Shown in pieces: positions 37,578 to 47,603 of a DNA stretch of 52,955 nt. The stretch lies in the NCBI GenBank assembly GCA_913047675.1, contig CAJWTO010000005.1:1-52955 (forward strand). The letters are read 5' to 3'. The position numbers and the translations under genes were made by a program. The notes below the pieces were generated by a model. The model was not told the DNA's origin. It did no database searches and saw only the letters and a program-made list of their open reading frames with translations. Numbering within the stretch: the first letter of the stretch is position 1; the number at the start of each line of letters is the position of its first letter. Origin of the DNA: an uncultured Pseudomonadota bacterium (lineage in GTDB: Bacteria; Pseudomonadota; Gammaproteobacteria; Ga0077536).

Positions 37578-38396
37578 CTATTTAAAAGAGTAGGTCTCAG
37601 TAGGGAACTTTCCTCCTTTCACCTCCGTAACATAGCTACCTACTGCATTTTGTATGGAGTTAGAACCTTCCATATAATTCTTAGAAAATCGCGTACGCTT
37701 ACCAGGCGCTATATCGAGTACGTCATACAATACCAAGATTTGACCGTCCACATCTGGTCCAGCCCCAATACCAATAACTGGGACCTTTGCGCTCTTGGTG
37801 ATCTCTCGTCCCAGTCCAGTCGGGACACACTCCAATAAAAGCAGATCAGCACCTGCAACTTCTAGGGCGGCTGCATCCTCTAGCATTTTATCCGCAGCTG
37901 CGGCCTCCCGACCTTGTACTTTGTATCCACCATACTTGTGAATTGCTTGGGGAGTTAAACCAAGATGTGCACACACAGGCACCCCACATTCGGTGAGCCG
38001 CCTGACCATATCGATTTCTAATTCACCCCATTCAAGCTTAACCATCGCCGCCCCACCCTCTTTCATAATCCTGGCAGCATTACTTAAACAATCATGAGGG
38101 GAGGAGTAGCTCATAAAAGGCATATCGGACATCAACAAAGCACGAGACAGTCCTCTTGATACGAGCTGGGTATGGTAAATTATCTCGTCTACGGTCACTG
38201 GAATAGTTGTCTCTCGTCCCTGAACAACCATCCCTACAGAATCTCCAACTAAAACAAAATCAACACCTGCTTGATCAAGAACCATCGCAAAAGCCGCATC
38301 ATAAGCGGTCATCGCGGCAATTTTCTCCCCGCCTTCTTTCATAAGCTTCAAAGTTGCATTTGTAACTTTAGAACTTGTATCAGTTTGCACGCTCAT
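37578..38396 (-). CDS. panB: 3-methyl-2-oxobutanoate hydroxymethyltransferase
   Basis: MTAYDA, LVGDSVGM, DMPFMSY, HLGLTPQ, GGYKVQG, IGIGAG and GQILVLYD motifs. Confidence 0.96.
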   Translation of the reverse strand: MSVQTDTSSKVTNATLKLMKEGGEKIAAMTAYDAAFAMVLDQAGVDFVLVGDSVGMVVQGRETTIPVTVDEIIYHTQLVSRGLSRALLMSDMPFMSYSSPHDCLSNAARIMKEGGAAMVKLEWGELEIDMVRRLTECGVPVCAHLGLTPQAIHKYGGYKVQGREAAAADKMLEDAAALEVAGADLLLLECVPTGLGREITKSAKVPVIGIGAGPDVDGQILVLYDVLDIAPGKRTRFSKNYMEGSNSIQNAVGSYVTEVKGGKFPTETYSFK

Positions 38397-38462: not shown

Positions 38463-39341
38463 CTAAATGCCCTCGGTGTGAATCCATTTCTCTATTGCAT
38501 CAGCGATTTCTACAGGGGAGTCTTCCTGAATAAAGTGAAGTCCTTTTACTTTAACCTCTTGCTGGTTTGGCCATGTCCGGGCGTAGTCCCGAGGAAGTCC
38601 GCTTAATATCATCCCCGGATCAGCATCGATGAAAAGTTTCGGTATATTACTCTGGCTTAAAAATTCTCCATAATTCTCTACAATGTCGCAAACTTCTTTC
38701 GGTTCGCTCTCAAGCGGAATTTGACGTGGCCAAGTCAGTGTGGGCCGGCGGTCTTCTCCAGCATTCTTGAAAGGCTCTATATAGGCCTCCATTTCATCAG
38801 CTTCAAGCTGTCTGAGAATAGACGCGGGTAAAACTTTTTTAACAAAAACATTTTTCTCCAAAACTACCTCTTCACCAGCACTGCTCCTAAAGGTCTGAAA
38901 AATGTCTCGCGCAGACTCAGGCCAAACATCCCAGGTCAATGGACAGACGATAGCCTCCATATAACACACGCCTGAGACACGCCCAGGATACTGTGCAATG
39001 TGATCAAAGCCCAGTGCACTTCCCCAATCATGAATTACCCATATAACATCCTGCTTGACGTCTAACGCGTCTAAAGCACCATGTAAGTAGTCTCGATGTT
39101 CAACGAATGTATATCGATCGGGACCAGAAGGGGTTAGTTTTTCAGAGTCACCCATACCAATCAAATCAATCGCAATGCATCGTCCTAGATGGGCTAATTT
39201 TGGCATGATATTTCTCCACAGGTATGAAGATGTGGGGTTGCCATGCTGGAAAATAATTGGTCGACCTTCTCCCATCTCGACGTAGGCCATGCGACTGCCA
39301 TTCACTTCAACAAATTTCTTCTTTGCCGTCCATTCATTCAT
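38463..39341 (-). CDS. Haloalkane dehalogenase (LinB/DhaA-like, HLD-II)
   Basis: HGNPTSSYLWRN, DLIGMGDS, HDWG nucleophile, YMEA acid, TLTWPRQIP and GLHFIQED base motifs. Confidence 0.92.
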   Translation of the reverse strand: MNEWTAKKKFVEVNGSRMAYVEMGEGRPIIFQHGNPTSSYLWRNIMPKLAHLGRCIAIDLIGMGDSEKLTPSGPDRYTFVEHRDYLHGALDALDVKQDVIWVIHDWGSALGFDHIAQYPGRVSGVCYMEAIVCPLTWDVWPESARDIFQTFRSSAGEEVVLEKNVFVKKVLPASILRQLEADEMEAYIEPFKNAGEDRRPTLTWPRQIPLESEPKEVCDIVENYGEFLSQSNIPKLFIDADPGMILSGLPRDYARTWPNQQEVKVKGLHFIQEDSPVEIADAIEKWIHTEGI

Positions 39342-39461: not shown

Positions 39462-40340
39462 CTATCTACTTTTAATTTGCTCCGCAAGCGCTGTAACGCG
39501 CTCGGCTAGCACAAGATGCGGTTTATCTATCATCTTTCCATCAATCTGCAATGTACCCGCCTCAGGGTTATTCTTGAAGGCCTCAATAACTGCCTTAGCG
39601 TGAGACAATTCCTCAAGGCTGGGAGAGAATGCTTTATTGATAACCTCAACTTGGGCAGGATGAATGCAAATTTTCCCAGTAAATCCGTCACGACGGGCAT
39701 CATCACACACAACTCGCAACTGATCTAAATCCCTAAAATCTGCCATAACGGTATCGATAGCTTGCACATGCGCGGCGTGAGCCGCAAATAAGCACAGCGA
39801 TCTGGTCATTTGATAAGGCGCTGTCCAATCTTTATTTGGTAGCGTATTCGCACTGGCGCCTACTGCCGCTCCTAAATCCTCTGCTCCCCAAGTTAGGCTT
39901 GAGACACGCTTAGGACTATCAACATACTGGCCCATGGTAAAGATAGCAGCTGCTGTCTCCGAGATAAGGGGTAACATTGCTATAGAACTCTGAGCGATTC
40001 CGTGCTCCGCCTCTAATACATCCATATAATGCGACACACAAATAACATCGTCTAATCCGTTTGATTTGGGGAAGACAACACCGTCTGGCGCAGCGGGAAT
40101 CACGGTCGCAAGATCGTTTAAAATCATTCCAGAATCTAACGGATTAACTCTTACGTAGAATTTAACGCTTGAATCAGTCTTAGCCTTTAAAAAGTCTCTG
40201 ACCATTTCCCTCGCTAATGGTTTACGAGCTTCTGCGACCGAGTCTTCTAAATCTAGAATGACGCAATCAGCTCCGATTGTTGAAGCCTTAAGCATTTTCT
40301 TTTCACTATCACCAGGAGCAAACAATAATGAACGCAACAT
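39462..40340 (-). CDS. CitE-like CoA-ester lyase (HpcH/HpaI aldolase-citrate lyase family)
   Basis: RSLLFAPG, LDLEDSV, YVRVN, ISET, WGAEDL, GFTGKICIHPAQ and DGKMIDKP motifs. Confidence 0.92.
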   Translation of the reverse strand: MLRSLLFAPGDSEKKMLKASTIGADCVILDLEDSVAEARKPLAREMVRDFLKAKTDSSVKFYVRVNPLDSGMILNDLATVIPAAPDGVVFPKSNGLDDVICVSHYMDVLEAEHGIAQSSIAMLPLISETAAAIFTMGQYVDSPKRVSSLTWGAEDLGAAVGASANTLPNKDWTAPYQMTRSLCLFAAHAAHVQAIDTVMADFRDLDQLRVVCDDARRDGFTGKICIHPAQVEVINKAFSPSLEELSHAKAVIEAFKNNPEAGTLQIDGKMIDKPHLVLAERVTALAEQIKSR

Positions 40341-40795
40341 TACGAAGGTTTCCTTAGAATAAGGCCAGATCTTTTACAATAGGCAACTAGATCATCGTTT
40401 TGATTGAAGGCGCTATGCGCAAATAGCACGATGCCATTGTTCGGTCTCGATTTACTATCGCGTTTCTCCAAGATCTCAGTTTCAACGCGAATGGTATCGC
40501 CATGAAAGCAGGGCTTAGGAAAACGAACTTCATCCCAACCTAAATTAGCGACCGCCGTTCCCAGAGTTGTATCATACACAGTAATACCTACCATTAAAGA
40601 CAGCGTAAAACAGCTGTTGACTATTCTTTGCCCGAACTCAGTATGCTCTCTGCAGTACTCATCGTCTAAGTGCAGTTTAGCTGGATTGTGAGTCATAGTT
40701 GTAAACAACACATTATCAGTCTCAGTTATGGTGCGGGTAATAGCGTGTTCAAATTTTTGACCAACACTAAATTCTTCGTAAAACAATCCTGCCAT
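40340..40795 (-). CDS. MaoC-family (R)-specific hydratase, similar to M. tuberculosis Rv2499c
   Basis: MAGLFYEEF...RTITETDNVLFTTMTHNPAKLHLD...FGQRIVNS...ANLGWDEVRFPKPCFHGDT...SKSRPNNGIV; one-base overlap with the CitE-like gene. Confidence 0.88.
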   Translation of the reverse strand: MAGLFYEEFSVGQKFEHAITRTITETDNVLFTTMTHNPAKLHLDDEYCREHTEFGQRIVNSCFTLSLMVGITVYDTTLGTAVANLGWDEVRFPKPCFHGDTIRVETEILEKRDSKSRPNNGIVLFAHSAFNQNDDLVAYCKRSGLILRKPS

Positions 40796-40868
40796 CGTGC
40801 CTCTCCTATTTATCAACTAAATCGTACTTTTAACAAAGTCTTGTCAACCACGGTCAATTAATTACCAA

Positions 40869-42377
40869 TCACAAAAATAAATCCTTGTACTTTTCCCGTA
40901 ATTCAGTTTTCTGAATTTTCCCCATAGCATTTCGCGGCAGTTCATCGAGCGTCACTATCGCTTTTGGAAGTTTGTATTTTGCTAACTTGTCAGACAAAGT
41001 GTCAAGCAGAGTCTCTCTACATAATTCTTTCTCGTTGGTCGTCACGACCGCCGCAACAACAGCCTCACCGAAGTCAGAGTGCTCAACACCAAACACAGCA
41101 ACTTCTAATACGAGGTTATCTTGTTCAATCTCTTTTTCAACTTCCTTAGGATATACATTTAACCCACCGCTTATGATCATGTCCTTTGAGCGACCCGATA
41201 TATAAAGGTACTCGTCGTCATCCAAGTAGCCTTGATCACCAGTAATGAACCAACCATCTTTTGTGAAGGCCTCAGAGGTTTTTTCTGGAAGATTCCAATA
41301 TTCGGGAAACACATTCTCACCCTTAACTTCAATAGACCCTATTCTATTGGCACCACCATCTGCCTTATTAATACTTGAGATGCGGAGTTTCACACCGGGA
41401 AGCACCTGACCAACTGAGCCAGCTATTCGATTGCCATTGATAGGATTTGAGGTGTTGACCCCTGTCTCAGTCATACCGTATCGCTCCAACACCGATTTAC
41501 CGGTGCGAGCCTTAAACCGTGCGAACAATTTCTCAGACAAAGGTGCTGATCCAGAAATAAACACTCGAACAGACCGGCAACAATTAGCACTGAAAGTAGG
41601 ATCGGCCAGTAACCGAGAATAATATGTTGGCACGCCTGCCATCACGGTGCTATCAGCCAACTCGGCAATTACTTCTTTTACATCAAAAGCGAGCGCGTAT
41701 TTAATCTGACAGCCGCTCAGCAATGAGGGCCCCAGCAATATGAATAGCCCATGGACATGAAATACGGGCAGAACATGAAGTACGGTATCGCTTGAATCAA
41801 ACTCCCACAGATCCTTTAATGTACTGGCGTTGCTAAAAAGGTTTCCATGAGTTAACCGAATACCTTTAGGGTCACCAGTAGTACCTGAAGAATACAAGAG
41901 TGCCGCCGTGTCATCCCCACGCATCTTTACCGTTTCAAATGATCTGTAGTGCTCTGAGCGAGGCCGAAAAAGTCTGTCCCCGTCGCGACCATCTAAAGGC
42001 AATATCTCAGTATTTTTTTTTCGGTCGACGCCATCAAATTTACTACGCAAATCGTGGGATGAAACTATTAATTTAGGCTTTGCATCTCTTAGAAAGAATT
42101 GAATCTCAGACGGCGTGTATGCGGGATTTAACGGATGAAAAATACAACCAACTCGTAAGCATCCCAGATAGAGCCAAAGAAAATTAAGAGACTTCCCTCC
42201 TATGACTGATACTAGATCACCTTTAGTCAAACCAAAATCTGTAAGGGTAGAGGCTACGGTTCCTGTGATCTTATCAACATCGTTATAAGTAAACACCTCT
42301 CCTTTGCACACAAGGGCGCGATTTCTCATCTGGAATTGCTCACGAAAACGTGAGTACAGATTCTCGCTTTCGCTCAT
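40869..42377 (-). CDS. MatB-like malonyl-CoA synthetase / dicarboxylate-CoA ligase
   Basis: YSSGTTGDPKG, LPVFHVHGL, ERYGMTETG, SNP...GSVG, NVFPEYW, IISGGLNVYPKEVE and LPRNAMGKIQK motifs typical of MatB. Confidence 0.82.
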   Translation of the reverse strand: MSESENLYSRFREQFQMRNRALVCKGEVFTYNDVDKITGTVASTLTDFGLTKGDLVSVIGGKSLNFLWLYLGCLRVGCIFHPLNPAYTPSEIQFFLRDAKPKLIVSSHDLRSKFDGVDRKKNTEILPLDGRDGDRLFRPRSEHYRSFETVKMRGDDTAALLYSSGTTGDPKGIRLTHGNLFSNASTLKDLWEFDSSDTVLHVLPVFHVHGLFILLGPSLLSGCQIKYALAFDVKEVIAELADSTVMAGVPTYYSRLLADPTFSANCCRSVRVFISGSAPLSEKLFARFKARTGKSVLERYGMTETGVNTSNPINGNRIAGSVGQVLPGVKLRISSINKADGGANRIGSIEVKGENVFPEYWNLPEKTSEAFTKDGWFITGDQGYLDDDEYLYISGRSKDMIISGGLNVYPKEVEKEIEQDNLVLEVAVFGVEHSDFGEAVVAAVVTTNEKELCRETLLDTLSDKLAKYKLPKAIVTLDELPRNAMGKIQKTELREKYKDLFL

Positions 42378-42398: not shown

Positions 42399-43544
42399 CT
42401 AAAGAGAGCGAGAAATAAGCTCCTTCATAATCTCGTTAGAGCCGCCGTAGATCATTTGCACACGACTGTCAGCAAAATAATGTGCGACAGGGTATTCCAT
42501 CATATAGCCGTAACCACCATGCAGTTGAAGACATTGATGCGCGGCTTCAAATTGCTTCTCCGAGCACCACCATTTAGCCATCGACGCAGTCTCATTATCC
42601 AAACGATCCTCATTTAGCTCACCAATACAGTAATCAATAAAAACTCTAGAAATTTTTGCCTCGGTAGCTATCTCTGCTAGTTTGAACTTAGTGTTTTGAA
42701 AATCCATTAAAGGCTTCTTGAACGCCTTACGCTCTTTGGTGTACTCGATGGTCTGCTCAAGTACTGCTTCTACAGCAGCAATAGCTCCCACCCCAATAAT
42801 TAGTCGCTCCCGCGGCAACTGCGCCATTAACTGGTAGAAACCTTGTCCTTCCTCGCCACCCAAAATATTTTCAATAGGAATACGGCAATCGTCAAAGAAT
42901 AATTCACACGTATCTTGGCCTTTCATTCCCACTTTTTTAAGCGGTTTATTTCGGCTAAAACCTTCCAAGTCATCAACTTCACACATTAGGAGAGAAACCC
43001 CCTTAGCACCCTCGTTCGGATCTGTCTTACACACCACGCAAACTAAATTCGCATTGTAGCCATTCGTGATAAATATTTTAGAACCGTTAAGTACATACTC
43101 GTCGCCGTCTCTTACCGCCTTGGTTGTGATCGACTGCAGATCCGAACCGGTCCCGGGCTCAGTCATCGCAATAGATGTAATAACATCGCCTGACGCCATA
43201 CCTGGCAACCAGCGATGCTTTTGTTCTTCGGTCCCATATTTAACGATATAATGAGCAACTATGCTCTGTATCCCGTTACCGAAACTTGAAATACATAGCC
43301 TCAGCAATTCTTCGTAAGTAATCACGTCAAAGCCGAAATCCCCGCCGCCACCACCATACTCAGCCGGAACATCGGGACAAAGAAGACCCATTTCACCTGC
43401 TTTTTTCCAATATTCTTTTTCAGGGTAACCTTGCTCAACCCAATGTTCCCTTTGTGGCAAAAATTCAGACTCGAGAAACTTACGAACCCCATCTCGATAC
43501 ATATCGTGGTCTTCGGTCATCCAAGGTGATCTGTAAGCGTTCAT
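42399..43544 (-). CDS. Acyl-CoA dehydrogenase (LCAD-like)
   Basis: AMTEPGTGSDL, NGSKIFITNG, KVGMKGQDT, LPRERL, FQNTKF, QLHGGYGY and IYGGSNEIM motifs. Confidence 0.94.
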   Translation of the reverse strand: MNAYRSPWMTEDHDMYRDGVRKFLESEFLPQREHWVEQGYPEKEYWKKAGEMGLLCPDVPAEYGGGGGDFGFDVITYEELLRLCISSFGNGIQSIVAHYIVKYGTEEQKHRWLPGMASGDVITSIAMTEPGTGSDLQSITTKAVRDGDEYVLNGSKIFITNGYNANLVCVVCKTDPNEGAKGVSLLMCEVDDLEGFSRNKPLKKVGMKGQDTCELFFDDCRIPIENILGGEEGQGFYQLMAQLPRERLIIGVGAIAAVEAVLEQTIEYTKERKAFKKPLMDFQNTKFKLAEIATEAKISRVFIDYCIGELNEDRLDNETASMAKWWCSEKQFEAAHQCLQLHGGYGYMMEYPVAHYFADSRVQMIYGGSNEIMKELISRSL

Positions 43545-43582: not shown

Positions 43583-44785
43583 TTAAGCAGCATGCAGTCC
43601 AAAAACCGACACGCTAGCTACATTACGAAAGGGGTGCCCACCTAAATTATGAGTCAGCCCCATAGTCGGGCTATTTAACTGTCGTTCGCCAGCTCGCCCT
43701 TGAAGTTGCAAATATATTTCATACGCCATTCGCAAACCACTCGCACCGATGGGATGCCCAAAGCATTTAAGCCCCCCATCAATTTGGCACGGCACTTGTC
43801 CATCTTTGTCAAACTTCCCATCCAAAACTGCGTTTATACCCTGCCCTTCGTCACACAAGCCTAGGTCTTCCATTACCACAAGTTCAGTCACTGAAAAACA
43901 ATCATGCACCTCAGTCATATTGAGCTCTTTATCAGGATTTTTGATTCCAGCTTCTTGGTAGGCACGTCCGGCTGCAATTCGTGTAGTCTCGAGGTAGCTT
44001 CCATCCCAGCCAGTCGTAGACATTTCAAACCCATTACTGGGAGCTAACTGCATGGCCTTAACGGTAACCATATCCGTTATACCCATTTCCTTGGCTTTTT
44101 CGACGCTTGTGACGATCGCACAGGCCGCTCCGTCACTGACACCACAGCAGTCATATAAACCTAAAGGCGCTGCAATCATCGGCGCGTTCATCGCCTGTTC
44201 CTCAGTGATCTCCCTCCTCAAATGTGCCTTTGGATTTAATACACCGTTAGCATGACTTTTCACTGATACGTGAGCCATTGCTCTTTTTAGGTCACTTGCG
44301 TCGCACTTGTGCTTTGCCTGATATGCACTTGCCAATTGAGCAAAAGCACCAGGAGCCGTTGCATTTGGTAGCCAGAGATCATCGAATGTACCTTTACTAC
44401 GTTCTGGAAGTCCCGGATAACCCGTGTCTTTTAATTTTTCGACTCCGACTGCCATGGCAACATCACATGCGCCCGCCGCGACCGCATAGACAGCACCTCG
44501 CAACGCTTCTGTACCTGTAGCGCACATATTCTCCACTCTCGTGACGGGAATGTTAGGTAACCTAAGGGACATACTAAGGGGTAATCCTGATTTACCTGCA
44601 CTTTGCTCTTGCATAAATAATCCAAGCCACGCCATCTCAATTTGTTCCCGATCCACGCCAGAATCACTTAGCGCCTCTGAAAACGCCTCAACCATTAACT
44701 CTTCCGGTCCACAGTCCCATCTCTCGCCAAAGCGCGTACAGCCCATACCAATAATTGCAACTTTATCTTTAATACCTTTAGCCAT
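43583..44785 (-). CDS. Thiolase, SCP-x/BbsB/PhlC-like type
   Basis: RVENMCATG with catalytic Cys, CCGVSDGAA, EVHDCF, GGLKCFGHPIGASG and HNLGG motifs. Confidence 0.9.
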   Translation of the reverse strand: MAKGIKDKVAIIGMGCTRFGERWDCGPEELMVEAFSEALSDSGVDREQIEMAWLGLFMQEQSAGKSGLPLSMSLRLPNIPVTRVENMCATGTEALRGAVYAVAAGACDVAMAVGVEKLKDTGYPGLPERSKGTFDDLWLPNATAPGAFAQLASAYQAKHKCDASDLKRAMAHVSVKSHANGVLNPKAHLRREITEEQAMNAPMIAAPLGLYDCCGVSDGAACAIVTSVEKAKEMGITDMVTVKAMQLAPSNGFEMSTTGWDGSYLETTRIAAGRAYQEAGIKNPDKELNMTEVHDCFSVTELVVMEDLGLCDEGQGINAVLDGKFDKDGQVPCQIDGGLKCFGHPIGASGLRMAYEIYLQLQGRAGERQLNSPTMGLTHNLGGHPFRNVASVSVFGLHAA

Positions 44786-44803
44786 AACTAGAATCCTTTA
44801 GAT

Positions 44804-46237
44804 TTACGCGCTTATTAAAGGCGCAGGTTTCCAAAAATATCGATGAAAATCTCGCTTATCATCGCGATCTTTTACTCTGTACACTAACCGAACCTCATCT
44901 CCGACCGAGACACTACCAGACTCGAAATCAGTAAATTCGAGCATCACATTCGCTCCCCCATCAAATTCTACATTACCATATATACAAGGAGGAGAAGGAG
45001 TGTATGCTAGCCAATCCTCAGTAAATGACTTAACTCTGCCAAGTTTAGTAGACAAAGTCTCTTCACTTTGTGTGCCGCTAGCCCCGCAACTTACGCATAC
45101 TATGCTCAGCGGATATTGAAGCGCGTTACATTTGGAGCATCGTCCTCCAATCATTGAATTGATGTCTCGTCTCTTTCGATAGTATGCAGAAAGTGCCGTC
45201 CTATTATCTCGTTCCGCACGCAGACCAAAATCCAAACCCAGTCGCTCTCTAAGAGATAAATAGAAAGTATAGTTCTCAGTTGACCGGCGTCGTTCCATGA
45301 ATTTCTTCAGACCTTTCTTAGCACGCATACCGACGAGAGCGCTGGTCGTTTTAATGACTACTGCATCAACTCCCTGACCAAAACCAACCAGCATGATAGT
45401 CTCTCCAGGACTGGCCTTTTCTAGTGAGCTGGCAAGCATCAAAAACGGATGTGCGGCACCAGTATCCCCGCAAGCGGACGCTAAGTTATCTTCAAAACGA
45501 GAAAGGTCAACTTTAATCGTCTTAGCCAAACCTTTCATAGCACCTATCGCTCCATGGACCACAAAGTGGTCAATATCTGAGAGCTTCACATTCGCGGCAG
45601 TCGCCGCGTTAGCCATAGCAGTGGGAGCGATTTTCAACCAACCTTCTTCTCGTACCCATCGTTCTTCGAGACTATAGTCGTAATCAGCTCCGGTAGACCG
45701 ATATTGATCAACTAAATCCTCATGCTCTGATGCGCTGCCAAGAAATTCAGCAATTGGCTCACCTTCACCTAAGAGTAATGCACCGCTTCCGTGACCATAG
45801 GACATTTCCTGCGCACTAGCAGGCTTCGCTTCGCGGCAATCACTTGCAATCAATAAGCTACTTGACGCCCCGGTCTTAAGCGCACGACTGAGGCCACTAG
45901 TAGCAGCCCGACGACTTCCCGCTAAATCCTCAGTTCCGACATCAGTACCCAAATTGAGAGCATCCGCAATCAACCCACTGTTAGATCGATCTGCAAAAGG
46001 AAAGGTTGTTGAAATCATACTGACGTGATCAACTGTTGAACTGACATCATTAAGACAATCTAGGCCAGCCTCAACAGCCATCGTTATAGAATCCTCGTCC
46101 CAATTTGCTACGGTTCTCTCACCTGAAGCCAATGCTCGAAGATTCGGTGCGGCCCAGCCCACTGCTCCAAAAATTGCTTTTCTATCCAATCGTAATGCCG
46201 GCACGTAAGCACCAAACGATAAAATCCCATAGCTCAT
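44804..46237 (-). CDS. HMG-CoA-synthase-like domain fused to a DUF35 zinc-ribbon/OB-fold domain
   Basis: N-terminal GAYVPALRL, ANWDEDSITMAVEA and GHGSGALLLG motifs; C-terminal GGRCSKC...YP...CVSCG, then VKSFTEDWL, VEFDGG and VGDEVRLVYR. Confidence 0.85.
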   Translation of the reverse strand: MSYGILSFGAYVPALRLDRKAIFGAVGWAAPNLRALASGERTVANWDEDSITMAVEAGLDCLNDVSSTVDHVSMISTTFPFADRSNSGLIADALNLGTDVGTEDLAGSRRAATSGLSRALKTGASSSLLIASDCREAKPASAQEMSYGHGSGALLLGEGEPIAEFLGSASEHEDLVDQYRSTGADYDYSLEERWVREEGWLKIAPTAMANAATAANVKLSDIDHFVVHGAIGAMKGLAKTIKVDLSRFEDNLASACGDTGAAHPFLMLASSLEKASPGETIMLVGFGQGVDAVVIKTTSALVGMRAKKGLKKFMERRRSTENYTFYLSLRERLGLDFGLRAERDNRTALSAYYRKRRDINSMIGGRCSKCNALQYPLSIVCVSCGASGTQSEETLSTKLGRVKSFTEDWLAYTPSPPCIYGNVEFDGGANVMLEFTDFESGSVSVGDEVRLVYRVKDRDDKRDFHRYFWKPAPLISA

Positions 46238-46360: not shown

Positions 46361-47566
46361 TCAAATGACACGACTATTTATAAATTGCTGAATTTCGGAA
46401 TCGTTAAATCCAATCTCTTTTAAGACTTCTTCTGAATGTTCGCCAATGTCAGGCGGCTGTCCGAGAGAAGACTTATAATTCGAAAAATCCAAAGGTATCC
46501 GTGTCGCATGGATCTTGCCTTCAGACGACAAAGGAGTAATTGCCTCGACGAAGCCCATTGCGTCAACCTGGGGGTGAGACGCGACTTCAGTGACCCCAAG
46601 AACAGGGCCACAAGGCACTCCTAAACTCGATAACTCTTCAAGTACTTTCTCGGTAGTAAACTGATTGGCCCATTCCGCTACAGTTTCACAGATAAAATTT
46701 CGATGTTCTGCTCTCGATTGATCAGACTCGAAGCGCACGTCGTCGATCCATTCTGGCTTACCTATCACTTTAGCTATTCGAGAAAATAATCCATTGCCGA
46801 CAACTTGAGTAATAATGCTGCCATCGCGGGTTTTAAAAATATCAGTAGGTGCGGTAGTTTGACCACGATTGCCATCGGGACGTCGGTCGGTACTTAGGGT
46901 CTCCTGTTCAATAATCGCGCTACTAAAAGCGCCAATTGCGGAACCCAGTAAAGACGTTTGAACATGCTGACCCTCTCCATCTTGATCTCTTTGACGCAAA
47001 GCGGCCATTGTTCCAAACGCTCCCATCACAGCCGTAGTGTAGTCAGCGTAAGGAGCTGCAGATCGTCGCGGCTCCTCCTCAGTACCCGACATAAAGGCGG
47101 AACCCGACATCACCTGAGCAATACCATCGAACCCTGCCCAATCACTCCATGGGCCGTCATGGCCGAAGCATGTCTGCGTTGTCAGTATAATGTCTCTCTT
47201 CAGGGATTTAAGGCTATCGTAATCAAGACCTAAGCGCTTGAGCACTTTGGCTGGCATGTTAACAATAATTACGTCGGCCGATTCTACCAAACGTTCAACT
47301 ATCACTCTCGAATCTGGCGACTTTAAGTCCAGAGTAAGACCCCTTTTACCCAAACCGGTCATAGAAAGTAATGCACTCGTGTCACCATAGAGCGGCGTGA
47401 CAAAGCGATCTTCTCCCCCTGATGGTTTTTCTACCCTGATGACATCAGCCCCCAAATAAGCAAGTAGTCTGGCGCAATAAGGTCCGGCAATATATCTAGA
47501 GAAATCAATAACCCTGATACCTTTCAGCGCTCCTTTGGAAAATGCCTTAACTTCTTTGTGCTTCAT
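46361..47566 (-). CDS. CaiB/BaiF family III CoA-transferase
   Basis: ALKGIRVIDFSRYIAGP, GADVIRVE, GKRGLTLDLK, GFDGIAQ and PPDIGEHSEEVL motifs. Start at ATG 47566 (AGGAG upstream) or 47596. Confidence 0.92.
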   Translation of the reverse strand: MKHKEVKAFSKGALKGIRVIDFSRYIAGPYCARLLAYLGADVIRVEKPSGGEDRFVTPLYGDTSALLSMTGLGKRGLTLDLKSPDSRVIVERLVESADVIIVNMPAKVLKRLGLDYDSLKSLKRDIILTTQTCFGHDGPWSDWAGFDGIAQVMSGSAFMSGTEEEPRRSAAPYADYTTAVMGAFGTMAALRQRDQDGEGQHVQTSLLGSAIGAFSSAIIEQETLSTDRRPDGNRGQTTAPTDIFKTRDGSIITQVVGNGLFSRIAKVIGKPEWIDDVRFESDQSRAEHRNFICETVAEWANQFTTEKVLEELSSLGVPCGPVLGVTEVASHPQVDAMGFVEAITPLSSEGKIHATRIPLDFSNYKSSLGQPPDIGEHSEEVLKEIGFNDSEIQQFINSRVI

Positions 47567-47603
47567 CTCCACTCCTACGTTTACAGCGTCCAGCATAATT
47601 ATC

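What the first reader, a model, noticed from the sequence alone, without database searches (positions are those of the whole stretch)
43583..46237. Catalytically dead HMG-CoA-synthase-like domain fused to DUF35, paired with a thiolase: a two-gene PhlABC / archaeal thiolase-HMGS-like complex
Seen: where archaeal-type HMGS has DLEFACKAGT (catalytic Cys), this protein reads DLAGSRRAATSGL, with Arg at the Cys position. The His/Asn region is also altered (VHGAI, GDTGAAH). The C-terminal CxxC...CxxC zinc ribbon and OB fold are intact, and the adjacent thiolase keeps its Cys (ENMCATG), HDCF and GHPIG motifs. Known: archaeal thiolase-HMGS-DUF35 complexes share a CoA site, and in Pseudomonas PhlABC the HMGS-like PhlA is non-catalytic while PhlC performs C-acylation. 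Inference: a pseudoenzyme scaffold shaping a thiolase or acyltransferase for a bulky acyl-CoA or for CoA-independent acyl transfer; the reaction is unknown.
Basis: partly seen in the sequence, partly recalled or inferred. Interest (0 to 1): 0.65.

Follow-up and report, generated by a model that had tools for sequence, protein, structure and literature searches.

The report
Thiolase with dead HMG-synthase/DUF35 partner
Two adjacent genes encode a working thiolase and a partner protein that looks like HMG-CoA synthase but has lost its catalytic cysteine and is fused to a zinc-ribbon/OB-fold module; a Pseudomonas example of this design was tested biochemically in 2026, so this is an ordinary new member whose natural substrate is still unknown.

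Summary
Gene 44804-46237(-) encodes a 477-aa HMGS/PhlA-like domain fused to a DUF35 zinc ribbon plus OB fold. Gene 43583-44785(-), 18 nt downstream, encodes an SCP-x/archaeal-type thiolase with Cys88, H294-D-C-F and G-H344-P intact.

Against archaeal HMGS (E82/C114/H238/N270) the fusion reads T77/R109/H228/D258. The Cys, Glu and Asn are lost.

None of 199 family members has Cys at position 109. All 72 partner thiolases keep their catalytic residues. The two genes are adjacent wherever the contig allows.

This architecture is already described (PMC12960953, Nat Commun 2026). About 1,000 bacterial loci were reported, and the P. fluorescens fused complex cleaves acetoacetyl-CoA thiolytically but makes no HMG-CoA.

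The retained HDCF motif and the absence of PKS/NRPS neighbours argue against PhlACB-like CoA-independent acyl transfer.

- The pair sits in conserved CoA-thioester catabolic operons (SUGCT-like CoA-transferase, LCAD-like dehydrogenase, MatB-like ligase, MaoC hydratase, CitE-like lyase, or an SDR elsewhere). It therefore looks like a dedicated degradative thiolase rather than an idle evolutionary intermediate.
- The former active site is strongly conserved (G-S-R-R, D-R-S-N).

Verdict: new member of a known kind, low-to-moderate interest.

The parts
44804..46237 (-). Gene for the 477-aa pseudo-HMGS::DUF35 fusion protein (P0001)
   Evidence: ORF, translation. Pfam ACP_syn_III_C, zf-ChsH2, OB_ChsH2_C. 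NCBIfam archaeal HMGS NF003274 scores 152 bits, below its cut-off of 244. AF2 model pLDDT 87.5, pTM 0.90.
45233..46237 (-). HMGS/PhlA-like thiolase-fold domain (about aa 1-335) lacking the catalytic Cys
   Evidence: Best PDB sequence hits are PhlA 9skh_A and 5m3k_A, MucA 9vbo_A and archaeal HMGS 6esq_I. Foldseek target TM-score is 0.86-0.87 to 6esq_I/6et9_I and 0.81-0.82 to PhlA.
45911..45913 (-). Codon of Arg109, at the position of the HMGS catalytic cysteine
   Evidence: Aligned to C114 of 6esq_I. The position is never Cys in 199 family members; R110 is kept in 198 of 199.
45077..45151 (-). CxxC...CxxC zinc ribbon of the DUF35 module (aa 363-387; C367, C370, C381, C384)
   Evidence: Pfam zf-ChsH2. 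The four Cys are conserved in 198-199 of 199 sequences. Matches DUF35 6esq_E and PhlB 5m3k_B.
44822..45070 (-). OB-fold of the DUF35 module (aa 390-472)
   Evidence: Pfam OB_ChsH2_C at 400-454. Beta-strands at 390-472 in the model.
43583..44785 (-). Gene for the 400-aa SCP-x/archaeal-type thiolase (P0002), 18 nt after the fusion gene, with an AAGGA ribosome-binding site
   Evidence: NCBIfam NF004810 scores 671 bits, above its cut-off of 403. PDB hits 7yvy_A, archaeal thiolase 6esq_A and BbsB 7pxp_C are full length; PhlC matches only at the C-terminus. Intergenic sequence read directly.
44522..44524 (-). Codon of thiolase nucleophile Cys88 (ENMCATG)
   Evidence: Aligned to the Cys of the archaeal thiolase. 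Conserved in 72 of 72 partner thiolases.
43895..43906 (-). Thiolase H294-D-C-F motif
   Evidence: Conserved in 72 of 72. H294 has the same number as the H294Y mutation that inactivates PfACAT (PMC12960953).
46361..47596 (-). Family III CoA-transferase, first gene of the operon
   Evidence: Pfam CoA_transf_3. Best PDB hits are 4ed9 and succinate-hydroxymethylglutarate CoA-transferase 9br7. Found upstream of the fusion in 47 of 79 loci.
42399..43544 (-). Acyl-CoA dehydrogenase
   Evidence: Pfam. Best PDB hits are 2pg0 and human LCAD 8w0t. Follows the thiolase in most type-A loci.
40869..42377 (-). MatB-like acyl-CoA ligase
   Evidence: NCBIfam NF005702 malonyl-CoA synthase subfamily scores 603 bits, above its cut-off of 558. 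PDB malonyl-CoA synthetase 4fuq scores 424 bits.
40340..40816 (-). MaoC-type (R)-specific enoyl-CoA hydratase
   Evidence: Pfam MaoC_dehydratas and MC_hydratase. Best NCBIfam hit is RipB/Ich, below cut-off. PDB beta-methylmalyl-CoA dehydratase 8hgn.
39462..40340 (-). HpcH/CitE-like beta-hydroxyacyl-CoA lyase; its start overlaps the MaoC stop
   Evidence: Pfam HpcH_HpaI. NCBIfam CitE and RipC hits are below cut-off. Best PDB hits are M. tuberculosis CitE-like 6aq4 and human CLYBL 5vxc.

Best explanation
The two genes encode the subunits of one thiolase holoenzyme of the bacterial 'ACAT/HMGS-DUF35' type.

The 400-aa protein is the catalyst. Cys88 is acylated, and H294/C296 (HDCF) and H344 (GHP) do the acid-base work. 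It cleaves a 3-oxoacyl-CoA with free CoA.

The 477-aa protein does no Claisen chemistry, because the HMGS nucleophile is Arg, the Glu is Thr and the Asn is Asp. Its thiolase-fold domain and its covalently attached DUF35 zinc ribbon/OB fold probably clamp onto the thiolase dimer, as HMGS and DUF35 do in the archaeal complex and as PhlA and PhlB do in PhlACB. In that position they would stabilise the thiolase and form part of its CoA/substrate chamber.

In this organism the complex probably serves as the thiolytic step of a CoA-thioester catabolic operon. That operon also holds a SUGCT-like CoA-transferase, an LCAD-like dehydrogenase, a MatB-like ligase, a MaoC hydratase and a CitE-like lyase. 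The likely feedstock is a small or branched (di)carboxylic acid, and the likely thiolase substrate is acetoacetyl-CoA or a carboxylated/branched 3-oxoacyl-CoA.

Shown here: the sequence features, the family-wide residue pattern, the synteny and the fold. Shown elsewhere, on a homologue only: complex formation and thiolysis without condensation. Inferred: complex formation here, the physiological substrate and the direction of flux.
For: - Residue mapping to archaeal HMGS gives T77/R109/H228/D258 against E82/C114/H238/N270.
- Position 109 is never Cys in 199 homologues, and the zinc-ribbon Cys are conserved. More distant clades at 30-44% identity also lack Cys (Q, S or T) and are still paired with an intact thiolase.
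- Thiolase C88, HDCF and GHP are kept in 72 of 72 loci. The thiolase scores above the NCBIfam NF004810 cut-off. Its closest solved relatives are DUF35-dependent thiolases: archaeal ACAT 6esq_A and BbsB 7pxp_C.
- The order fusion-then-thiolase is kept in 72 of 79 genome loci; in most of the other seven the contig ends at or just after the fusion gene, and in one (L078) no full-length thiolase match was found at the expected place although the contig continues. The gap here is 18 nt and carries an RBS.
- The AF2 model has pTM 0.90 and matches archaeal HMGS (target TM-score 0.86-0.87) and PhlA (0.81-0.82).
- The context is catabolic. The operon order CoAT3-FUS-THL-ACAD-LIG-MaoC-HpcH is conserved in more than 30 species. 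Other lineages show SDR-MaoC-FUS-THL-ACAD-CoAT with a TTT transporter (Variovorax), or Rieske oxygenase-FUS-THL-SDR (Niveispirillum and Woeseiaceae).
- The genome has no HMG-CoA reductase.
Against: - No biochemical data exist for this protein or for any close relative. The tested P. fluorescens protein could not be retrieved, so its orthology rests on the shared architecture, motifs and H294 numbering only.
- Type-A operons such as this one have no 3-hydroxyacyl-CoA dehydrogenase gene, so it is unclear where the thiolase's 3-oxoacyl-CoA comes from.
- The very strong conservation of G107-S-R-R110, D83-R-S-N86, H172, D174, D177 and R180 is more than a passive scaffold would seem to need.
- Complex formation could not be modelled, because only single chains can be folded with these tools.
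Confidence: 0.8

Rival explanations
1. The HMGS-like domain is not a mere scaffold. Its former active-site tunnel, now lined by invariant G-S-R-R and D-R-S-N, would be a functional ligand pocket. It could bind the distal carboxylate of a dicarboxylyl-CoA or part of CoA, and so set the thiolase's substrate specificity or regulate it. Less likely, it could carry a new catalytic activity.
For: R110 is kept in 198 of 199 sequences, D83, R84 and N86 in all 199 and S85 in 198, and G107/S108 are near-invariant. R109 is fixed throughout a 55-locus clade. In archaeal HMGS the equivalent Cys lies at the end of the pantetheine tunnel that opens into the shared CoA site (Voegeli 2018, as cited in PMC12960953). 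The operon partners are dicarboxylate-type enzymes, SUGCT-like and MatB-like.
Against: Position 109 is L, Q, M or V in other clades with the same thiolase partner. The three loci L050-L052 have R109 in the other (Rieske/SDR) operon type, so the residue tracks clade rather than context. R110 corresponds to a Lys that HMGS and PhlA also have, so it may be structural. No coordinates were available to place these residues.
Confidence: 0.15
2. A PhlACB/MucABC-like Friedel-Crafts C-acyltransferase that moves acyl groups between small-molecule acceptors without CoA thiolysis.
For: PhlA proteins are the best solved sequence matches of the N-domain (92 and 85 bits). Like PhlA, it lacks the Cys and has Asp for Asn.
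Against: Those enzymes have lost the thiolase HDxF motif (PMC12960953), whereas HDCF is intact here and in all 72 partners. PhlC matches only the C-terminal third of the thiolase at 67 bits, against 184-198 bits full length for archaeal-type thiolases. There is no PKS or NRPS in the window. The fused P. fluorescens homologue behaves as a thiolase.
Confidence: 0.03
3. An anabolic acetoacetyl-CoA/HMG-CoA-forming complex like the archaeal mevalonate enzyme, or a retro-aldolase like Ltp2/Sal that uses DUF35.
For: It has the same three modules as the archaeal complex. DUF35-bound thiolase-like aldolases exist in steroid degradation (PMC12329534, listed).
Against: Three of the four residues of the HMGS tetrad are gone. 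NCBIfam HMGS models score far below their cut-offs. The genome has no HMG-CoA reductase. The Pf homologue does not condense acetyl-CoA. From my own knowledge, Ltp2/Sal-type aldolases lack the thiolase nucleophile, whereas Cys88 is invariant here.
Confidence: 0.02

Closest known systems
PfACAT/HMGS-DUF35 complex of Pseudomonas fluorescens (Nat Commun 2026;17:2196, PMC12960953)
   Same: Two-gene design with the HMGS-like domain fused to DUF35. The HMGS catalytic tetrad is degenerate. The ACAT partner keeps Cys, HDxF (His at position 294 in both) and GHx. There are no PKS/NRPS neighbours.
   Different: The window protein keeps the tetrad His. Here the pair lies inside a conserved CoA-thioester catabolic operon, whereas the paper regarded such loci as not yet recruited to a pathway.
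[quoted passage not shown]
   Same: The same three modules and folds. Target TM-score to the HMGS chain is 0.86-0.87. The thiolase scores 184 bits full length with the same Cys, HDCF and GH motifs. DUF35 matches 6esq_E.
   Different: The HMGS nucleophile, Glu and Asn are replaced. DUF35 is fused rather than a separate chain. The genome has no mevalonate pathway. The expected direction is thiolysis rather than condensation.
PhlACB (PDB 5M3K/5MG5, 9SKH) and MucABC (9VBO) Friedel-Crafts acyltransferases
   Same: The N-domain is closest in sequence to PhlA. It shares the Cys loss and the Asn-to-Asp change. A DUF35 partner (PhlB) is present.
   Different: Those systems have three separate proteins. 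PhlC and MucB have lost HDxF and act without thiolysis. They sit in PKS/NRPS clusters. The thiolase here is not PhlC-like.
BbsAB benzoylsuccinyl-CoA thiolase (PDB 7PXP)
   Same: An SCP-x-type thiolase dependent on a DUF35 zinc-ribbon subunit. It works in a beta-oxidation-like operon with a family III CoA-transferase and an acyl-CoA dehydrogenase. BbsB scores 171 bits against the window thiolase.
   Different: BbsA has no HMGS-like domain. The Bbs pathway is anaerobic toluene catabolism, with a crotonase-type hydratase and an SDR. NCBIfam BbsA and BbsB models score far below their cut-offs here.

Membership tests
Bacterial ACAT/HMGS-DUF35 complexes (PfACAT/HMGS-DUF35 type) | HMGS-like domain covalently fused to a DUF35 zinc ribbon plus OB fold | tested here: met
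   Pfam domains, PDB hits to PhlA/HMGS and to DUF35/PhlB in a single chain, and the AF2 model.
Bacterial ACAT/HMGS-DUF35 complexes (PfACAT/HMGS-DUF35 type) | HMGS E-C-H-N catalytic tetrad lost | tested here: met
   The tetrad reads T77/R109/H228/D258, so three of four residues are lost, including the nucleophile. The His is kept here but varies in the family: P in 98, H in 75.
Bacterial ACAT/HMGS-DUF35 complexes (PfACAT/HMGS-DUF35 type) | Adjacent ACAT-type thiolase keeping the catalytic Cys, HDxF and GHx | tested here: met
   C88, H294-D-C-F and G-H344-P are present and conserved in 72 of 72 partners. The gene is 18 nt downstream.
Bacterial ACAT/HMGS-DUF35 complexes (PfACAT/HMGS-DUF35 type) | No neighbouring PKS/NRPS genes | tested here: met
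   All neighbours from 23857 to 52371 were scanned with Pfam and none is a PKS or NRPS.
Bacterial ACAT/HMGS-DUF35 complexes (PfACAT/HMGS-DUF35 type) | Forms a complex that cleaves acetoacetyl-CoA thiolytically and does not make HMG-CoA | not testable with these tools
   Known only for the P. fluorescens representative (PMC12960953).
HMG-CoA synthase (archaeal type, NF003274 / TIGR00748) | Score above the curated cut-off, and a catalytic Cys | tested here: not met
   152 bits against a cut-off of 244, and 88 bits against 353. The Cys is replaced by Arg.
PhlACB/MucABC Friedel-Crafts acyltransferases | Thiolase-like subunit that has lost the HDxF motif | tested here: not met
   HDCF is intact. 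PhlC matches only residues 268-389.
PhlACB/MucABC Friedel-Crafts acyltransferases | Located in a type III PKS or NRPS-PKS cluster | tested here: not met
   The neighbours are CoA-thioester catabolic genes.
PRK06157-type thiolase (NCBIfam NF004810) | Score above the curated cut-off over the full length | tested here: met
   671 bits against a cut-off of 403, covering residues 1-398 of 400.
BbsAB benzoylsuccinyl-CoA thiolase | Scores above the equivalog cut-offs for BbsA and BbsB | tested here: not met
   BbsA scores 17 bits against 250, and BbsB 157 bits against 750.

The most novel reading that the evidence does not exclude
These 'orphan' pseudo-HMGS::DUF35-thiolase pairs would not be evolutionary leftovers. 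They would be the dedicated thiolase holoenzymes of undescribed catabolic routes. In this clade the route would degrade a small, branched or substituted dicarboxylate. It would be opened by a MatB-like ligase or SUGCT-like transferase and processed by an LCAD-like dehydrogenase, a MaoC hydratase and a CitE-like lyase. The former HMGS active site (invariant G-S-R-R and D-R-S-N) would be re-used as an anion-binding pocket that gives the thiolase its substrate specificity.
Probability: 0.25. Interest if true: 0.55.

Novelty: new member of a known kind. Interest (0 to 1): 0.25.

Why it matters
This gene pair is a clean, family-wide example of a pseudoenzyme retained as an obligate partner of an active enzyme. 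It occurs in hundreds of proteobacterial species, yet no physiological substrate is known for any of them.

The conserved operon contexts found here argue that the complexes already have defined catabolic roles. They also name culturable carriers, such as Variovorax paradoxus VAI-C and Niveispirillum cyanobacteriorum TH16, in which this can be tested.

For this particular locus the result mostly improves annotation. The fusion should not be called HMG-CoA synthase or FabH.

Tried and rejected
1. The idea that the family III 'CoA-transferase' is an alpha-methylacyl-CoA racemase, which would make the operon an MFE-2/SCPx-type branched-chain beta-oxidation. Rejected: its best solved relatives are SUGCT, formyl-CoA transferases and BbsEF, and no racemase appears at E <= 1e-20.

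2. The idea that Arg109 tracks the dicarboxylate-type operon. Rejected as stated: L050-L052 carry R109 in the Rieske/SDR-type context, so the residue follows clade.

3. Retrieving the P. fluorescens protein to measure identity. No supplement is held for the paper. The genome scan returned almost only MAGs. Cluster look-ups carried no names.

4. The promoter/terminator scan gave counts no higher than in shuffled sequence. The one suggestive feature is a hairpin plus T-run just after the hydrolase gene (38473-38459).

5. Assigning the substrate from the neighbours' closest families (RipB/Ich, RipC/CitE, Mcd, glutaryl-CoA dehydrogenase). All score well below the curated cut-offs, so no pathway could be named.

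6. Multimer modelling was not possible, because the tool folds single chains only.
Full report
**1. What is in the sequence**

The finding spans two co-oriented minus-strand ORFs, 44804-46237 (477 aa, P0001) and 43583-44785 (400 aa, P0002). They are separated by 18 nt that carry an AAGGA ribosome-binding site.

Pfam finds a KAS-III/HMGS-type C-terminal half (ACP_syn_III_C) followed by the ChsH2-type zinc ribbon and OB fold (DUF35) in P0001. It finds thiolase N- and C-domains in P0002.

NCBIfam's archaeal HMG-CoA synthase models hit P0001 over its first 330 residues, but far below cut-off (152 bits against 244; 88 against 353). P0002 passes the NF004810 (PRK06157) thiolase model at 671 bits against a cut-off of 403.

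**2. The active-site check**

By sequence against solved structures, the N-domain is closest to PhlA (9skh_A at 92 bits, 5m3k_A at 85 bits). Next come MucA (9vbo_A, 69 bits) and the archaeal HMGS of the thiolase/HMGS/DUF35 complex (6esq_I, 68 bits). The C-terminal 120 residues match DUF35 (6esq_E) and PhlB.

The archaeal catalytic tetrad is E82/C114/H238/N270 (PMC12960953). Using it, the printed alignment gives T77/R109/H228/D258:

| HMGS residue | Window residue | Status |
|---|---|---|
| E82 | T77 | lost |
| C114 (nucleophile, 'DLEFACKAGT') | R109 | lost, confirmed |
| N270 | D258 | lost |

An AlphaFold2 model built on 65 homologues is confident (pLDDT 87.5, pTM 0.90). Foldseek matches it best to PhlA and archaeal HMGS chains. 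The target TM-score is 0.86-0.87 to archaeal HMGS at 2.8-3.0 Å, and 0.81-0.82 to PhlA.

The thiolase aligns over its full length with archaeal acetoacetyl-CoA thiolase 6esq_A, with 7yvy_A and with BbsB 7pxp_C. It shares their Cys, HDCF and GH motifs. PhlC matches only its C-terminal third.

**3. Is the pattern more than a one-off?**

The fusion has at least 2,657 database relatives among the 8,000 candidates scored. A pattern scan of species-representative genomes found 233 loci. About 2% of evenly sampled Gammaproteobacteria carry it (7 of 300). The window's own genome has one copy.

Across 199 distinct fusion proteins:
- Position 109 is R in 176, Q in 12, L in 9, M in 1 and V in 1, and never Cys.
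- Position 77 is Thr in 196.
- Position 258 is Asp in 185.
- Position 228 is variable (P in 98, H in 75).
- The four zinc-ribbon Cys are essentially invariant.

More distant clades at 30-44% identity also lack the Cys (Q, S or T). Where the contig allows, they too sit next to a thiolase with intact residues.

In 72 partner thiolases, C88, H294-D-C-F and G-H344-P are kept in all 72. The fusion-then-thiolase order is kept in 72 of 79 loci. In most of the other seven the contig ends at or just after the fusion gene. In one (L078) no full-length thiolase match was found at the expected place although the contig continues.

**4. What is already known**

A full-text search found one paper that describes this design: Nat Commun 2026;17:2196 (PMC12960953). 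Its authors mined 1,030 bacterial loci with co-localised HMGS, ACAT and DUF35. Of these, 1,001 had no PKS/NRPS neighbours.

They chose a P. fluorescens representative with a fused HMGS-DUF35. They noted the missing E-C-H-N tetrad and the intact Cys, HDxF and GHx in the ACAT. The complex made neither HMG-CoA nor acetoacetyl-CoA from acetyl-CoA, but it cleaved acetoacetyl-CoA thiolytically. H294Y nearly abolished activity. The His of HDCF in the window's thiolase is also residue 294.

The same paper shows that the Friedel-Crafts acyltransferases PhlACB and MucABC differ by having lost HDxF. The window's pair therefore meets every sequence-level criterion of the PfACAT/HMGS-DUF35 kind. It fails the criteria for true HMGS, PhlACB/MucABC and BbsAB (see the membership table). 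The genome has no HMG-CoA reductase, so a mevalonate role is excluded as far as an 88%-complete genome allows.

**5. Context and likely role**

The pair lies in a tight minus-strand operon:

| Gene | Coordinates |
|---|---|
| Family III CoA-transferase | 46361-47596 |
| Fusion | 44804-46237 |
| Thiolase | 43583-44785 |
| Acyl-CoA dehydrogenase | 42399-43544 |
| MatB-like ligase (NF005702, 603 bits against cut-off 558) | 40869-42377 |
| MaoC hydratase | 40340-40816 |
| HpcH/CitE-like lyase (start overlaps the MaoC stop) | 39462-40340 |
| Alpha/beta-hydrolase scoring as haloalkane dehalogenase | 38463-39341 |
| panB | 37578-38396 |

The closest solved relatives of the neighbours are:
- succinate-hydroxymethylglutarate CoA-transferase (SUGCT) for the transferase;
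- human LCAD and a Geobacillus dehydrogenase for the ACAD;
- R. palustris malonyl-CoA synthetase, at 424 bits, for the ligase;
- beta-methylmalyl-CoA dehydratase for the MaoC protein;
- M. tuberculosis CitE-like beta-hydroxyacyl-CoA lyase and human CLYBL for the lyase.

This order, called 'type A' here, recurs in more than 30 species of uncultured Gammaproteobacteria. A second context, 'type B', occurs in Steroidobacteraceae, Woeseiaceae and a Niveispirillum plasmid. It surrounds the same pair with a ligase, ACAD, CoA-transferase, Rieske-type oxygenase, GSTs and an SDR. In Variovorax paradoxus the pair sits in SDR-MaoC-FUS-THL-ACAD-CoA-transferase next to TTT-family substrate-binding (TctC-like) genes.

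The common denominator is an (R)-hydratase-type beta-oxidation set fed by a CoA-transferase. I therefore read the pair as the thiolytic enzyme of CoA-thioester catabolism. [quoted passage not shown]

The actual substrate remains unknown. All neighbour-family matches that would name a pathway are well below curated cut-offs. The type-A operon also lacks a 3-hydroxyacyl-CoA dehydrogenase gene. One self-consistent but unproven scheme is a leucine/HMG-like route: dehydrogenase, MaoC hydratase and CitE-like lyase would yield acetyl-CoA plus a 3-oxo acid, which is re-activated and cleaved by the thiolase.

**6. Is the dead domain only a scaffold?**

The fusion is under strong constraint, with 64-67% mean column identity over 28-65 sequences that are 51-90% identical to the query. 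Invariant or near-invariant positions include:
- D83-R-S-N86 and G107-S-R-R110;
- H172, D174, D177, R180 and D187-Y188;
- the linker 340-347 (R-A-E-R-D-N-R-T), seven of whose eight residues are invariant or nearly so;
- a C-terminal R-Y-F-W-K.

The linker is the least confident part of the monomer model (pLDDT below 50). That would fit a segment that orders only on the partner; this is an inference.

A quick maximum-likelihood tree shows that R109 is fixed in a 55-locus clade, while sister clades have L, Q, M or V. H228 survives only in the 27-row subclade that includes the window.

I tested whether R109 tracks the dicarboxylate-type operon, and it does not strictly. L050-L052 have R109 in the type-B context. 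A functional anion-binding pocket therefore remains possible but unproven, and I give it about 0.15-0.25.

**7. Verdict**

It is wrong or unsupported in its alternatives, CoA-independent transfer and a bulky substrate.

The kind is already published and biochemically sampled, so this is a new member of a known kind. Earlier notes of this scan on look-alike loci reached the same filing. I found the paper independently and treat those notes as agreement, not as evidence.

Noticed in passing
window 38463-39341 (-): An alpha/beta-hydrolase passes NCBIfam's haloalkane dehalogenase equivalog (NF002938, 401 bits against cut-off 241). It follows the CitE-like lyase in 27 of 79 related loci, and its start overlaps the lyase stop in L086/L087. 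A dehalogenase-family enzyme inside an acyl-CoA operon is unexplained.
   Followed up: partly
window 37578-38396 (-): This is the genome's only panB, while panC is on another contig. It sits at the end of the operon here and in 21 related loci. In L086/L087 its start overlaps the hydrolase stop. This could be a link to CoA supply or to a 2-oxoisovalerate-yielding pathway; the reason is unknown.
   Followed up: partly
L005:13548-15134; L086:14378-15955: A conserved ORF of about 525 aa with no Pfam or NCBIfam match lies between the ligase and MaoC genes in many type-A operons. It is absent from the window, where that gap is only 52 nt.
   Followed up: no
L074:6721-7992, L088:7596-8816 and related loci: In a second operon type the same fusion-thiolase pair is immediately preceded by a Rieske-type oxygenase alpha subunit (best NCBIfam hit GbcA-like, 123 bits, below cut-off). 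It is flanked by one or two GST genes and an SDR. This suggests a different, possibly aromatic or N-methylated, feedstock.
   Followed up: partly
window 45197-45220 (-), residues 340-347 of the fusion: In the linker R-A-E-R-D-N-R-T between the HMGS-like and DUF35 domains, seven of the eight residues are invariant or nearly so. It is also the lowest-confidence stretch of the monomer model (pLDDT below 50). It is a candidate contact segment for the thiolase.
   Followed up: no
loci L001-L079: The thiolase partner is much more conserved than the fusion. For example, it is 80-91% identical where the fusion is 57-74% identical.
   Followed up: no
G000:C6:41121-42353 (+): The same genome has a second SCP-x-like thiolase (247 bits to NF004810, below cut-off). 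Whether it has its own DUF35 partner was not checked.
   Followed up: no
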